64,000 bases of DNA from Eledone cirrhosa. Its lineage: Eukaryota. The position numbers were made by a program, and so were the translations under genes. Positions 17,989 to 50,607 of this stretch are shown piece by piece. The notes below the pieces were generated by a model. The model did no database searches and was not told the DNA's origin. It worked only from the letters and a program-made list of their open reading frames with translations. The stretch spans positions 68,014,001 to 68,078,000 of the forward strand of contig OZ024746.1 of NCBI GenBank assembly GCA_964016885.1. Direction: 5' to 3'. Positions within the stretch are counted from its first letter, which is position 1. Every line of letters begins with the position of its first letter.

Positions 17989-18216
17989 TATAGTAATAAT
18001 TGTTTCTACTTTAGGCACAAGGCCAGCAATTACTCCCTATAGTAATAATAAACTTTAATCTGTTATTTTAATAAATATATATATATATATATGGAAAGTT
18101 ATATTTAAATTGTTGTGTTACAACAAGTAAATATTTATAACTGATATAAAAGCACTCGACAAATATTTGGAGTATATTTACAATATTAAATAAATGGAAA
18201 CTATATTTATAAAACC

Positions 18217-18293
18217 ATATTTATTTCATTATATATATTTCAGGGATAACATATTAACAATATGCTATGCCTTCCTCAGACAAAATACAATAT
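18217..18293 (-). ncRNA. Type I minimal hammerhead ribozyme (mirror copy in left arm)
   Basis: Exact reverse complement of 20281-20357; predicted cleavage between 18230 and 18229 on the minus (host-gene sense) strand. Confidence 0.8.
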
Positions 18294-20280
18294 AAACAGT
18301 TTTATAGATAAATAGATTCGACATACCGTACCAACATCTACTTGCATTTGAGAAGGTTGATTTGGTTGTGACAAAATTGTACACAGAGAGAAAGAAAGAG
18401 AGAGAGAAAGAGAGAAAAAGAGAGAAAAAAGAAAGAAAACGAAGAAAAAGAAAAAGAAGAAATGCATGGAACAAAATAGAGAGATGGAAAGATAGATAAA
18501 GAGAAGAACTTCATGTAAAGAAACAGAAAGAGATATATATATATATAGAGAGAGGAAATAGAGATAGATACATATATAGAAAGCTAGGTAGTGGAACGAC
18601 TGTTGAATAACGTATCAATGATACATTCATTTGTTTATTTATTTATTTAGCTCTAGTATTAATGTAAGGGAGATATATGGAGGGAAAACCAGCTGTTAAA
18701 TAGGGAGAGAAAAAATATAGAGAGAGAAAAAAGAGAGAGAGAAAATTCAAAAACATCCAGACACAAGCGAGGCGTACAAACCTCTGTTTTAATGTAGAGG
18801 TATTAGTAATTACAAAACCAGCCTCTGCATTGTAAATATCAGTATTCCTGAATGAGATATGTATCCACAATGTGTGAAAATTAATGATCTTATGTTTAGT
18901 TTTTTAAAAAATTCATATGTTTATGTGATAATTACAAACATCTATGTGAATGTACATGATCAATTCTGCAAACCCTAAGTTCACGGAAAGTATTCTCAAT
19001 GCGGTATAAAAATTTAAGTATACATATATGTGTATATAGAGTCAATATTACTATTTCTGTCTCTACTCTACAAGATTATCTATCAAGCAAAGATAGAGCA
19101 GATTTCAATATACTAATAAAAATAAAAATAAATAAAAATATATCGGAAACAAAACTAAACTAAAATAACAATAATAATAATAAGTAATAATAAAATAGAA
19201 AACTAAGAAATATTACGAAAGAGTATTACATATTAAAAATATTACATATTAAAAATTTACATATTAAAAATATTAAAAATAAAAAATTAGGAAATACTAC
19301 AGTAATAAAAATAAAATAAACCACAAAGATCAACCCTTCAAATAATATTTCTTAGTTTTCTATTTTATTACTTATTATTATTATTGTTATTTTAGTTTAG
19401 TTTTGTTTCCGATATATTTTTATTTATTTTTATTTTTATTAGTATATTGAAATCTGCTCTATCTTTGCTTGATAGATAATCTTGTAGAGTAGAGACAGAA
19501 ATAGTAATATTGACTCTATATACACATATATGTATACTTAAATTTTTATACCGCATTGAGAATACTTTCCGTGAACTTAGGGTTTGCAGAATTGATCATG
19601 TACATTCACATAGATGTTTGTAATTATCACATAAACATATGAATTTTTTAAAAAACTAAACATAAGATCATTAATTTTCACACATTGTGGATACATATCT
19701 CATTCAGGAATACTGATATTTACAATGCAGAGGCTGGTTTTGTAATTACTAATACCTCTACATTAAAACAGAGGTTTGTACGCCTCGCTTGTGTCTGGAT
19801 GTTTTTGAATTTTCTCTCTCTCTTTTTTCTCTCTCTATATTTTTTCTCTCCCTATTTAACAGCTGGTTTTCCCTCCATATATCTCCCTTACATTAATACT
19901 AGAGCTAAATAAATAAATAAACAAATAAATGTATCATTGATACGTTATTCAACAGTCGTTCCACTACCTAGCTTTCTATATATGTATCTATCTCTATTTC
20001 CTCTCTCTATATATATATATATCTCTTTCTGTTTCTTTACATGAAGTTCTTCTCTTTATCTATCTTTCCATCTCTCTATTTTGTTCCATGCATTTCTTCT
20101 TTTTCTTTTTCTTCGTTTTCTTTCTTTTTTTCTCTTTTTTTCTCTCTTTTTCTCTCTTTCTCTCTCTCTTTCTTTCTCTCTGTGTACAATTTTGTCACAA
20201 CCAAATCAACCTTCTCAAATGCAAGTAGATGTTGGTACGGTATGTCGAATCTATTTATCTATTTATCTATAAAACTGTTT

Positions 20281-20357
20281 ATATTGTATTTTGTCTGAGG
20301 AAGGCATAGCATATTGTTAATATGTTATCCCTGAAATATATATAATGAAATAAATAT
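20281..20357 (+). ncRNA. Type I minimal hammerhead ribozyme (intact core)
   Basis: Stem I TATTTTGT/ATGAAATA (extends ATATT/AATAT past a bulged G); core CTGAGGA 20295-20301; stem II AGG-C-ATAGCATATT-GTT-AATATGTTAT-C-CCT; GAAA 20333-20336; short palindromic stem III A-T-ATAT-A-T; NUH = AUA, predicted cleavage 20344/20345; AATAAA immediately downstream. Confidence 0.8.
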
Positions 20358-20414
20358 GGTTTTATAAATATAGTTTCCATTTATTTAATATTGTATATAT
20401 ATATATATATATAT

Positions 20415-20560
20415 TTATGTCAAATAGTATATCTAATGGTTTGAACGAAAGTGAAAGCTCTCACTTTTCGTAAAGATGGCTGTATTGTTGTATATTTATA
20501 TATCTGTGTTAACTGTGTTAAAATTCTATGTATCAGCCATTACGGTTCTCACTTGATGAT
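20415..20560 (+). mobile_element. Possible Penelope-like element 3' fragment
   Basis: Short frame SNSISNGLNESESSHFS* resembles the NGLN C-terminus of Penelope GIY-YIG proteins; lies between TA tracts next to the fold-back element. Confidence 0.3.
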
Positions 20561-20585
20561 GATGGTGTATATATATATATATATA

Positions 20586-20843
20586 TCATCATCATCATCA
20601 TTTTACGTCTGCTTTTCCCTGCTTGCAAGGGTTGGACGGGTCCTATTCAGCACAGCATCTCTCCACTTGTCACGGTCATTCGTCATCTCCTCGGTGAGTT
20701 TCAGCAATCTGAGGTCTGCTCTCACCACCTCCGCCCATGTTTTTTGAGGTCTTCCTCTACTGCGTCTTCCTTCTACTGGGATTTCTTGGCACTTCTTTAC
20801 CCAGCGGTCATCCTCCATGTGCATCACATGTCCATACCATCTC
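20586..20843 (-). mobile_element. RTE family A 3' fragment inserted in (TA)n
   Basis: RWYGHVMHMEDDRWVKKCQEIPVEGRRSRGRPQKTW...WRDAV; (GAT)n tail; TA tracts both sides. Confidence 0.9.
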
Positions 20844-47885: not shown

Positions 47886-48109
47886 GTAATGTTCTAATAT
47901 TAGTTTTTATATTATAAAGTTTTGTTCATTTTCAAAATCAATTGATATACGTAAGCTGCATATTTCAATGGTAACAAGAATATCAACAGAATATCAACAG
48001 TAAACGACACTTGCTACTTGGGGGGATTGAACTTCACATCATGTATCAATGAAGCAAACTTATTAACCACACATCATTTCCCACAAATACATGTTTCTGC
48101 ATAAGTATG

Positions 48110-48700
48110 TATATGTGCATGCAGATAATATGTATGCATGTATAAATTCATTTGATCTTTGTTTGTGTTTGTATATGCCTTTGTATGGATATTGGATATA
48201 AATATAATGAGCATATATTCAATTGATGTTTGTACACACACAGATACACACATTTATATATATATATATATGTATAATGTATGGATATGTATATATACAT
48301 TTGATGTTTTTCTTTGTGTGTATGTGTATGTGATGTGCCTGGAGTTGATAATGTGCATATTTTATGGGCATTCATTTGAGGTTTGTGTGTGTATGTATGT
48401 GCATGCAGATAACGTGTGTATGCATGAGACTATCTATTTCATGTTTGTTTGTGTGAATATTTGTGTAGATATGCATGAGTATATTCATTTGATGTTTATT
48501 TGTCCATGCGTGTGTGAGTGTGTGTGAATGCATGTGTGTGAGTATGTGTGTGTGAGTATATGTGTGTGTGTGTGTATGTGTGTGTGTGAGTATATGTATG
48601 AGAATGCAAATATGTGTATGCCTGTGTATATCTATTTGATGTCTGTCTGTATGAATGTAAGTGTATATTGATGTGATGTTTGTGTGTGTGTGTGTGTGTG
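48110..48700. repeat. Degenerate GT/AT-rich simple repeat
   Basis: TGTGTATG-type motifs throughout. Confidence 0.85.
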
Positions 48701-49145
48701 AATGATAATAAGGTCAAAGAGTAACTGATGTAATATTTGGAAACAGTAATCTATGAAGACAAGTTAATTAAATATTAAATGTGAAAAAAAAATTAAGAGA
48801 TTACATGAAAACAGTGAGATAAAGAAGAGGAAGATACAAGAGGGGGAAGGATTTAGTGCTGTTTCAAGTGCAAGATGGAAAGATGGAAAAAAGTGTCAGA
48901 AAATTCAGATGAAACATAAAAGAACTCATCAATTATATGAAGTAAGGACCAGGGTTGCCAGATTAATTTAATAAAAAGTAACAAAGTTTTCAGAAAGTAG
49001 TGGATTGTATTAGAAAGTGTCACAATATTTCTGAGTAAATTATACACACACACATATATATATATATGTAAACACACACACACGCACACCCATATAAATA
49101 TATGTAAATACACATACACTCCTGTTTTTACCAAAACAATCTCTT

Positions 49146-49532
49146 TATATATATATATATATATATATATCTGTGTGTGTGTGTATTTATATATATATAT
49201 ATATGTATATATGTGTGTGTATATATTTATATAGGCATATACATATATATATGTATATATATATGTATATATATATATGTATATATATATGTATATATAT
49301 ATATATATATATATATAGGCATATACATATATATATGTATATATATATGTATATATATATATATATATATGTATATATATATATATATGTATATATATAT
49401 GTATATATATATATATATATATATATATATGTATATATATATATATATATATATATATATATATATATATATATATATATATATATGTATATATATACGT
49501 GTGTGTATATATATATATATATATATATATAT
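49146..49532. repeat. Long interrupted (TA)n microsatellite
   Basis: ~390 bp TA with G interruptions and a duplicated ATAGGCATATACAT block. Confidence 0.95.
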
Positions 49533-49677
49533 AGTAGGTAGGTGCGTAATGATAGTTACAGGGGGTTTGCCAGTGAGATCATTCAATGGAGTTCCAAAGG
49601 ACCATCACATGTAAGGTTAATGCTTCTGTACAGCTAAGAGGAGTTAAAGGCAGCTGTAACCTGCAGAGTGTGAATAA

Positions 49678-49918
49678 AAGTAAGTAGGAACAAAGTCTCA
49701 AAGTTGCATCATATAGAAACCTTATTCACATATGACAATTGTTTCAGTATCGATCAGCTGAAGATGCAGTCATGATGACCTGAGCCTGACTCTGCATCAA
49801 CAGCTCATCAGTTATGTAGTTTTATATGTGGAGAATACTTGATGGATAACGAAATAATTGTCATATATGAATAAAGTTTATATATGATGCAGCCTTGACA
49901 CTTTGTTCTCGCTTACTT
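49678..49918. mobile_element. Small fold-back element (~80-bp diverged arms) with decayed hammerhead motifs
   Basis: 49678-49757 and 49839-49918 are imperfect reverse complements; minus strand reads ACATAA-CTGATGA-GCTG..GATGCAG...CTGCATC..CAGC-(11 nt)-GAAAC-AATT-GTC-ATATGT; plus arm reads TTGATGG..GAAATAATTGTC..AATAAA. Confidence 0.6.
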
Positions 49919-50607
49919 ATATATTTATATTAGCGACCTCCCAACCTTCACCTCATTCTGTACTGTGCTGAAATCTATTCATAAGGCATCTATTGTCATC
50001 TGTCATAATGTTCATTTTCCTTAGAATAAAATATGTTAAAAAGTATTTAAATATTGCATAACATAATCTTAAACATTTATTTAGAATAACTAACTACAGA
50101 CAGTATTGTTAGAATGTTGGATAAAATACTTTGTGGAATTCATTTTGAACTCTGCATTCAAATCCTATCAGAATCAACTTTACCTTTTATCATTTTGATG
50201 TTGATAAAGAAAATGTACCAACCTAGTACTAGGGTTGATTCTTCCTCTATATCTCTTTCTCACTCCCTCTCTCTTCTTCTCTAGAAGATATTGGCTATGT
50301 TCCACCCTGAAGAAGAGATGGGCTCCACCAGGTTTAAAAACACACATCAGGCATAATAGATCCATATATACATACCATTAAAACAATAACTAACTTGTTA
50401 TGTTTACAGTTCAGAATGTTTTCAAGACTTCTATTCAGGGAAGCAGTGCAAGTCTAGCATAAGCTTCCTTAGTTATGAGTAGATAATGCCTATACAGAAT
50501 ATAAAGGGATATTGAAGAGTAGTGATATTATCTTGAAACTGGATTACCTATCATCAAAACTAATGGAACACATTCATAAGTGTGCAACATAACAATACTT
50601 GAACTGA

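What the first reader, a model, noticed from the sequence alone, without database searches (positions are those of the whole stretch)
18076..49930. Four sequence-distinct fold-back elements share one asymmetric architecture
Seen: (TA)n - unique extension - arm - spacer - inverted arm ending directly at a TA tract recurs four times: 18179-20395 (extension ~86 bp), 20938-21039 (~77 bp), 21199-22228 (~140 bp) and 49678-49918 (~145 bp). The extension is on the left every time, and intact, decayed or partial hammerhead motifs point outward in the arms. I could not align the four to each other by eye, so the layout rather than the sequence is shared. Established: Penelope insertions can carry a 3' tail beyond the pLTR and a tail-less inverted 5' copy. 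Inference: several Penelope-like families generate palindromic, MITE-looking, TA-targeted insertions by a common fold-back mechanism, spanning 0.1-2.2 kb and a range of ages.
Basis: partly seen in the sequence, partly recalled or inferred. Interest (0 to 1): 0.75.

Follow-up and report, generated by a model that had tools for sequence, protein, structure and literature searches.

The report
Penelope-like inverted insertions with one-sided tails
These four mirror-image DNA pieces in an animal genome are shortened leftovers of Penelope-like jumping genes, a layout already described, but three of them share a small folded RNA signal at the start of their tails that may mark where copying starts.

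Summary
The four inverted repeats are real, at the stated coordinates. Each has a one-sided extension and outward-facing type I hammerhead motifs (whole in E1, E3 and E4-left; 3' half only in E2 and E4-right). Seven of eight ends lie in (TA)n. Public reads laid on 20185-22480 show that the E2 and E3 extensions are high-copy family sequence joined to the arm. Family depth collapses 5' of the ribozyme, and two further E3-family contigs fold back at other points. This is the published Penelope-like element (PLE) layout: a 5'-truncated copy with a tail plus an inverted tail-less copy. It is not a DDE MITE. No PLE protein sequence was found, so the clade is open. TA-targeting is shared here with RTE and L1-type copies, and 'left every time' is compatible with chance (p=0.125). 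Two details go beyond the papers I could read. Tails are 77-144 nt rather than 30-40. It is a candidate signal for the second reverse-transcription start site. Overall: new members of a known kind.

The parts
18075..18092 (.). (TA)n left of E1
18154..18173 (-). E1 tail helix: ACUC/GAGU, UC bulge, 4-bp inner stem; 8 of 8 pairs form
18179..19215 (-). E1 tail-bearing arm
18230..18279 (-). E1 left type I minimal hammerhead, core CUGAGGA...GAAA...UA
19216..19342 (.). E1 spacer, AT-rich with short tandem repeats; orientation unresolved
19343..20395 (+). E1 tail-less inverted arm; last ~150 nt are very high-copy in 4 of 4 runs laid
20295..20344 (+). E1 right hammerhead; cut site 51 nt from arm end
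20394..20414 (.). (TA)n right of E1
20844..20860 (.). (TA)n between an RTE 3' fragment (20568-20844) and E2
20861..20937 (-). E2 tail (77 nt), high-copy and continuous with the arm in family reads
   Evidence: tables 2, 3, 7
20909..20932 (-). E2 tail helix; 6 of 8 pairs in this copy, 8 of 8 with family majority letters
20938..20973 (-). E2 tail-bearing arm with decayed hammerhead 3' half running on to about 20983
   Evidence: sequence
20995..21039 (+). E2 tail-less arm: hammerhead 3' half (GAAA 20995-20998, cut site 21016-21017); no CUGANGA box
21037..21055 (.). (TA)n shared by E2 and E3
21058..21198 (-). E3 tail (141 nt), high-copy; contigs of two organisms bridge tail and arm
   Evidence: table 8 records 7, 8, 22
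21135..21194 (-). E3 tail helix with a long AC-rich apical part; 6 of 8 pairs in this copy, 8 of 8 with family majority letters
21199..21485 (-). E3 tail-bearing arm; hammerhead about 21254-21303 with one core change private to this arm
   Evidence: row 21302
21486..21906 (.). E3 spacer, moderately repeated; orientation and coding content unresolved
21907..22228 (+). E3 tail-less inverted arm; hammerhead 22124-22173, cut site 53 nt from arm end
22226..22242 (.). (TA)n right of E3, also abutting an L1/Tx1-type 3' end
49146..49533 (.). long degenerate (TA)194 array left of E4
49534..49677 (-). E4 extension (144 nt); not tested with reads; ACUC at offset 8 but no matching GAGU box
49678..49756 (-). 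E4 tail-bearing arm
49734..49811 (-). E4 left hammerhead with long stem II and palindromic stem III/loop 3; its 5' half lies in the spacer, so the spacer continues the tail-bearing copy; cut site 56 nt from arm end
49840..49918 (+). E4 tail-less arm with hammerhead 3' half, ending in a short degenerate TA run

Best explanation
Each element is one insertion of a Penelope-like retroelement, from four different families, into a (TA)n tract. It consists of two 5'-truncated copies of the element's 3' end (the pseudo-LTR with its hammerhead) joined head to head, so that both 3' ends face the host DNA. Likely steps: the element's GIY-YIG endonuclease nicks the AT tract (inferred from other PLEs). Reverse transcription starts at a distal site inside the RNA and copies tail plus pLTR (inferred; the tail is shown to be family sequence for E2 and E3). 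Synthesis stops early (shown as a depth gradient). A second, inverted copy is made that ends at a proximal fixed site 4-8 nt before a conserved helix, so it lacks the tail (boundary shown, cause inferred). For the second copy I put self-priming of the truncated cDNA (fold-back) at about 50%, priming from the second nicked strand by a dimeric enzyme using the proximal start site at about 40%, and other routes at 10%. The elements are dead stubs, not units that move as palindromes.
For: Arms, tails and TA ends. Outward type I minimal hammerheads with the PLE traits listed in PMC4209133, i.e. an extra base after position 9 and a palindromic stem III/loop 3., summed depth in run X1: unique flank bins 128-244; E2 tail bin 226,575; pure E3 tail bin 72,695; E1 terminal bins 1.18-1.62 million falling to 38,526 just 5' of the ribozyme; E3 arm 312,197 falling to 6,000 and then 483 inward. 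X4, X5 and X13 show the same shape. Three listed contigs (X1 records 7 and 8, X5 record 22) bridge the E3 tail/arm junction with 31 or more letters on both sides. An X4 contig of 2539 nt carries about 2 kb beyond the tail end. 3133 X13 reads run from the E2 tail into an arm-like sequence. Two X1 joints, 21241->22186 and 21337->22090, are exact mirror points with 7 and 3 letters between: other fold-back copies of the E3 family with different arm lengths. Published PLE layout. Two internal RT start sites bracketing the tail, and nicking and extension of both strands: PMC11167929.
Against: No PLE RT or GIY-YIG sequence: 0 of 5 short frames (4 from the E3 spacer region) and the 131-aa E3 frame matched Pfam; spacer frames were otherwise only read by eye. 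Rfam found no hammerhead, and my descriptor missed E2 and E3. Tails are 2-4 times the 30-40 bp in the papers read. No empty site was seen. The tool states that summed depth is not a copy number, and each mirror joint rests on one contig. Searches of viral and metagenome contigs found no relative (0 hits).
Confidence: 0.87

Rival explanations
1. Non-autonomous short PLE derivatives (retrozyme- or SINE-like) that are mobilised in trans, some as ready-made palindromic units, rather than stubs of autonomous elements.
For: Most family depth sits in the last ~150 nt around the ribozyme. No coding remnant was found. Non-LTR retrozymes are argued to be non-autonomous PLE derivatives (bioRxiv 10.64898/2026.07.22.740005).
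Against: Fold-back points differ between E3-family copies (joints). Depth falls inward rather than ending at a fixed boundary. Retrozymes are defined as direct tandem repeats, which these are not. A 2.5-kb contig runs on past the E3 tail.
Confidence: 0.08
2. Two independent insertions of the same family in opposite orientation into one TA tract, as seen for the RTE pair at 58860-63104.
For: TA tracts here are shared hot spots. The RTE pair has a TA tract between its copies. E3 has a (TA)5 run at 21539-21548.
Against: No TA tract at the junctions of E1, E2 or E4. The E3 run lies inside family contigs (table 4, row 21539). E1's arms are 99.8% identical and share minority letters at 20227 and 20235 relative to contig runs X1, X4 and X5 (X13 plus-strand reads disagree at 20235). 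It would need exactly one tailed and one tail-less copy four times.
Confidence: 0.03
3. Ordinary Tc1/mariner-type MITEs at TA sites, with unrelated repeats beside them.
For: Inverted arms ending at TA are what TA-targeting DDE MITEs look like (established knowledge).
Against: Tail and arm are one continuous family sequence. Depth decays inward as for 5'-truncated retrocopies. Hammerheads are present. Internal breakpoints vary.
Confidence: 0.01
4. E1's 1-kb near-perfect repeat is an assembly or library fold-back artefact.
For: 99.8% identity; no long read or contig spanning it was seen.
Against: The arms differ by 2 substitutions and 3 indels. The right arm stops at the family end, 51 nt after the ribozyme cut, in a TA tract, like E3 and E4 (53, 56 nt).
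Confidence: 0.02

Closest known systems
Endonuclease-bearing Penelope-like elements with hammerheads (Penelope/Poseidon, Neptune, Nematis, Hydra clades)
   Same: 5' truncation, inverted tail-less copy at the 5' side, tail at one end only, type I minimal hammerhead in the pLTR (PMC8557442 passages and Fig. 2 legend; PMC3846280 passages; PMC4209133 parts 1-2).
   Different: Tails 77-144 nt against 30-40 bp reported; no ORF left in these copies, so the clade is not assigned; a cross-family tail helix is not mentioned in the passages read.
Naiad PLEs, including the Octopus, Euprymna and Architeuthis families listed with (TA)n preference
   Same: (TA)n insertion preference, inverted 5' copy, tail.
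   Different: Naiads lack canonical hammerheads, whereas E1, E3 and E4 have whole ones. The two short motifs searched (tail motif, E3 arm motif) had 0 hits in the supplement's consensus files (line breaks can hide hits). E2, with half a core, is not excluded.
Poseidon of Anolis carolinensis (PAc), the in vitro model
   Same: Tail bounded by two fixed sites; AT-rich target; hammerhead upstream of the tail; AC-rich stem-loop (E3's tail has an AC-rich hairpin) (PMC11167929).
   Different: In PAc the tail is short and lies in the ORF start; the paper describes no ACUC/GAGU bulged helix in the parts read; inverted products were not reconstituted.
Non-LTR retrozymes of animals
   Same: Type I hammerhead, non-coding, PLE-related.
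   Different: Retrozymes are direct tandem repeats; these are head-to-head pairs with a tail.
Tc1/mariner MITEs
   Same: Inverted arms, TA at the ends (established knowledge).
   Different: Asymmetric family tail, 5'-truncation gradient, ribozymes, variable internal breakpoints.

Membership tests
Penelope-like elements (EN+) | ORF with telomerase-like RT and GIY-YIG endonuclease | tested here: inconclusive
   No coding remnant recognised in these truncated copies; full-length members not retrievable: no genome held, 0 hits.
Penelope-like elements (EN+) | Type I minimal hammerhead in the pLTR, sense towards the 3' end | tested here: met
   Whole in E1 (both arms) and E4-left by descriptor; core boxes in E3; 3' half in E2 and E4-right. 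Rfam negative.
Penelope-like elements (EN+) | Inverted 5'-truncated copy adjacent at the 5' side | tested here: met
   two more mirror joints in the E3 family.
Penelope-like elements (EN+) | Tail at one end only, made of element sequence | tested here: met
   E2 and E3 by reads; E1 by shared motif only; E4 untested. Length 77-144 nt, longer than the 30-40 bp reported.
Penelope-like elements (EN+) | Frequent 5' truncation | tested here: met
   Depth falls 30- to 600-fold inward from the E1 and E3 3' ends in X1, same shape in X4, X5, X13 (depth is not copy number).
Penelope-like elements (EN+) | Direct partial tandem (pLTR-ORF-pLTR) | not testable with these tools
   No full-length copy in the window; X4 record 14 runs ~2 kb past the tail but its letters are not shown.
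Naiad clade | N-terminal GIY-YIG, CxC motif | not testable with these tools
   No ORF available.
Naiad clade | No canonical hammerhead | tested here: not met
   E1, E3 and E4 carry whole cores; E2 undecided.
Tc1/mariner MITE | Symmetric termini, fixed-length non-autonomous unit | tested here: not met
   One-sided family tail and variable breakpoints.
Non-LTR retrozyme | Direct tandem repeats, each with a type I hammerhead | tested here: not met
   No direct tandem of these units in the window.

The most novel reading that the evidence does not exclude
Unrelated PLE families keep one RNA signal at the start of the tail: ACUC paired with GAGU, a 2-nt pyrimidine bulge and a 4-bp stem whose sequence differs completely between families, placed 4-5 nt behind the tail-less end; in three of the four elements that end also lies a near-fixed 51-56 nt behind the hammerhead cut. 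The helix is the site the RT/endonuclease binds, and it sets the proximal start or stop of reverse transcription, much as a template boundary does in telomerase. It would explain the one-sided tail and give a descriptor to pull mis-filed PLE stubs out of MITE libraries.
Probability: 0.4. Interest if true: 0.6.

Novelty: new member of a known kind. Interest (0 to 1): 0.32.

Why it matters
The layout itself is known, so the main value is annotation: palindromic TA-flanked stubs like these can be filed as MITEs although they are retroelement ends, and they belong to very abundant families in this lineage. The origin of the PLE tail and inverted copy is still called undefined in PMC8557442. A helix conserved across families at the tail start gives a concrete cis-element to mutate in the existing in vitro system (PMC11167929), and thousands of natural fold-back junctions would let fold-back and two-strand priming be told apart by computation.

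Tried and rejected
Whole-genome search: no genome held. Rfam: 0 hits at gathering score in 64 kb; 13 weak non-hammerhead matches in 17800-22600, treated as chance. Exact-pattern scans: 0 in viral contigs, 0 and 0 in metagenome contigs. Earlier findings of this scan: nothing relevant in 4 look-ups; the one row returned was an unrelated archaeal locus sharing 3 of 91 words. No RNA holder listed. Piles of read ends at 21199, 21231/21234 and 22353 in X13 looked like element boundaries, but all sit on AATT, so I read them as restriction ends of the RAD library and did not use them. Reading E2 as one hammerhead with a long stem I: rejected, because there is no CUGANGA box and family reads show the arm as GAAA, stem III and cut site. 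Pfam on E3 frames and a PDZ-like exon: no hits; PDB search with that exon: 0. Tail folding alone is weak: z -2.2, -1.0, -1.45 and -0.35, and the helix appears in the minimum-energy fold only for E1. The unanchored relaxed helix pattern gave 6 hits against 4.5 in shuffles. The shared E1/E3 9-mer alone is weak: 243 of 3000 random pairs (43 after a complexity filter) and 319 of 5000 shuffles reach it. E4's best match to the motif is not significant, 1181 of 5000. Splice-site readings of the tails were considered by eye and dropped as untestable. Motif searches in supplements of PMC8557442, PMC11167929 and PMC3846280 gave 0 hits.
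Full report
Setting. The window is from an animal genome rich in RTE, L1-type and SINE repeats. It looks cephalopod-like to me from recall; I did not test this. No whole genome is held, so family-level evidence comes from one laying of four public runs on 20185-22480. That stretch covers E1's right end, E2 and E3, but not E1's extension or E4.

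Observation. All four inverted repeats are present: E1 1038 of 1040 aligned letters, E2 34 of 36, E3 199 of 217 plus a 60-nt inner block at 95%, E4 69 of 83. They are the only local inverted repeats in the self-BLAST besides two RTE pairs and one TA-centred 44-mer. Extensions are 87, 77, 141 and 144 nt. Seven of eight ends lie in a TA tract of at least 5 units; E4's right end has only a short degenerate run. A random point lies within 6 nt of such a tract 1.9% of the time. The left-side bias is 4 of 4 (two-sided p=0.125), and E2 and E3 are neighbours.

Ribozymes. A strict type I descriptor gave 4 hits in the window against a mean of 0.4 in 20 shuffles. Three are in E1 (20295-20344 plus, 18279-18230 minus) and E4 (49811-49734 minus); the fourth, at 44331, is outside the elements. 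The relaxed descriptor showed no excess, 3 against 1.5 in 8 shuffles. E3 has all core boxes but a decayed stem II; its left arm carries a core change that 99% of X1 depth lacks (row 21302). E2 has only GAAA, stem III and the cut site. Rfam found none. The motifs have the extra base after position 9 and the palindromic stem III/loop 3 described for PLE minimal hammerheads (PMC4209133, parts 1-2 of 4 read). The cut site lies 51, 53 and 56 nt from the arm end in E1, E3 and E4, and 20 nt in E2.

Are the extensions flank or element? In run X1 the unique flank bins have summed depth 128-244, the E2 tail bin 226,575 and the pure E3 tail bin 72,695. X4, X5 (another organism) and X13 (raw RAD reads) agree in shape (the tool warns that this is not a copy number). 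Of the 24 pieces listed (29,204 not shown), three bridge the E3 tail/arm junction with at least 31 letters on each side (records 7, 8, 22), and one 2539-nt contig runs about 2 kb past the tail end (record 14). For E2, 3133 reads run from the tail into arm-like sequence. It stays untested for E4 and is only inferred for E1. Depth drops steeply 5' of the ribozyme (E1 1.2-1.6 million to 38,526; E3 312,197 to 6,000 to 483), as expected for 5'-truncated retrocopies. Among the 15 joints shown and the 12 between-letter rows (52 and 15 more not shown), two join exact mirror points of E3, 21241->22186 and 21337->22090, with 7 and 3 letters between. I read them as other fold-back copies of the family, each resting on one contig. 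No joint skipping a whole element was shown; rows at repeats were dropped by the tool.

Read on the minus strand, all four tails have ACUC 4-8 nt after the arm end; four random 14-mers share any such pattern in 16 of 50,000 draws (pattern chosen after the fact). In E1, E2 and E3 it pairs with a downstream GAGU, with a UC bulge and a 4-bp inner stem of different sequence in each family. In the window's letters 20 of 24 pairs form, and all 4 broken pairs are restored by the majority letters at 20912, 20918 with 20925, 21141 and 21189. The E2 bulge is UC or UU in family reads (row 20913). An anchored null (ACUC at 4-9 nt plus the 11-letter motif with up to 2 mismatches) is met by 48 of 127,760 window positions. 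Against: E4 lacks the GAGU box (1181 of 5000 shuffles do as well). The E1/E3 shared 9-mer alone is weak (243 of 3000 random pairs). The unanchored pattern shows no excess (6 against 4.5). Minimum-energy folds of the decayed copies form the helix only in E1. Three families cannot give a formal covariation test.

Mechanism. Shown: two truncated copies joined head to head, one ending at the tail end and one at a fixed inner point, in TA tracts. From the literature: purified Anolis Poseidon nicks and extends both strands of AT-rich DNA and starts reverse transcription at two internal sites that bracket the tail, and hammerhead cleavage is not needed in vitro (PMC11167929, parts 1-2 of 4). Palindromes at inverted junctions were read as self-priming in Adineta (PMC3846280, passages). 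Inferred: the tailed copy starts at the distal site and the tail-less copy ends or starts at the proximal one. For fold-back: the short-loop E3 joints, E4's spacer continuing the tailed copy, and E1 arms sharing minority letters at 20227 and 20235 in the three contig runs (X13 plus-strand reads disagree at 20235, and gene conversion would look the same). For two-strand priming: it explains the precise tail-less end with no extra step. I put them at about 50% and 40%.

TA-targeting and age. RTE copies also sit at TA tracts (10349, 20568 and 20844, 60526, 63083), and an L1-type 3' end with a zf-RVT domain abuts E3's right tract, so TA here is a shared hot spot. Arm identity is an unsafe clock: E2's arms agree 34 of 36 while the copy differs from the family majority at several listed sites.

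Comparison with the known. PMC8557442 (passages; supplement part 1 of 59 and two searches) describes an inverted 5'-truncated copy and a 30-40-bp tail often at one end as typical of PLEs, and lists cephalopod Naiads with (TA)n preference that lack canonical hammerheads. PMC4209133 already notes pairs of minimal hammerheads 100-700 bp apart on opposite strands. PMC8969392 (passages) tells curators to expect inverted pLTRs and short 3' extensions. PMC13282606 (passages; supplement listed, not read) reports Penelope-like families in Octopus vulgaris and does not contain the word hammerhead. The bioRxiv retrozyme paper (part 1 of 5; supplement not seen) covers tandem, not inverted, derivatives. 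The elements therefore work like, and very probably are, PLE insertions. The defining ORF could not be tested and the clade is open; a hammerhead-bearing clade fits E1, E3 and E4.

Novelty. The architecture is known. I found no description of 77-144-nt tails or of a cross-family tail helix in nine literature searches or in the passages above. Arkhipova 2006 was not held, the 2017 paper on PLE hammerhead variants (recalled) was not retrieved, and Repbase/Dfam entries and figure images could not be seen, so this is weak evidence of absence.

Verdict. Observation confirmed; interpretation right on identity, overstated on novelty and on mechanism. Interest 0.32. The tail helix is the part worth following (probability 0.4 as a real, functional and undescribed signal; interest 0.6 if true).

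Noticed in passing
window 20394-22480: Within 2 kb, TA tracts hold the ends of E1, an RTE 3' fragment, E2, E3 and an L1/Tx1-type 3' end (zf-RVT at 22494-23147, minus): a multi-family insertion hot spot.
   Followed up: partly
window 10359-14182 and 58860-63104: Two inverted pairs of RTE-type LINE copies (94% tail to tail; 86.5% head to head with a TA tract between), with RT and a PHD-like finger in the 13438-15417 frame. They look like separate insertions, not fold-backs.
   Followed up: partly
window 20328-20332, loose ends in runs X1, X4, X5: Many contigs share E1's hammerhead 3' half but carry a different stem II upstream: sister families with covarying ribozymes (table 7).
   Followed up: no
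window 21600-21800: The middle of the E3 spacer has higher depth than its edges, and contigs lack a 52-58-nt AT-rich duplication there; it may be a separate repeat or a conserved inner part.
   Followed up: partly
window 28692-28850 minus: Short frame resembling the start of a PDZ domain of a FERM-PDZ protein (recalled label; no Pfam or PDB hit). If it is a host exon, all four tailed copies lie on the host gene's strand.
   Followed up: partly
window 53424-55400 minus: LINE frame with endonuclease and partial RT domains.
   Followed up: no
window 20554-20597: 44-nt palindrome made of (GAT)n-(TA)n-(CAT)n at the RTE 3' end.
   Followed up: no
window 49146-49533 and 23403-24068: A (TA)194 degenerate array next to E4, and a GT-rich 24-78-nt period satellite.
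   Followed up: no
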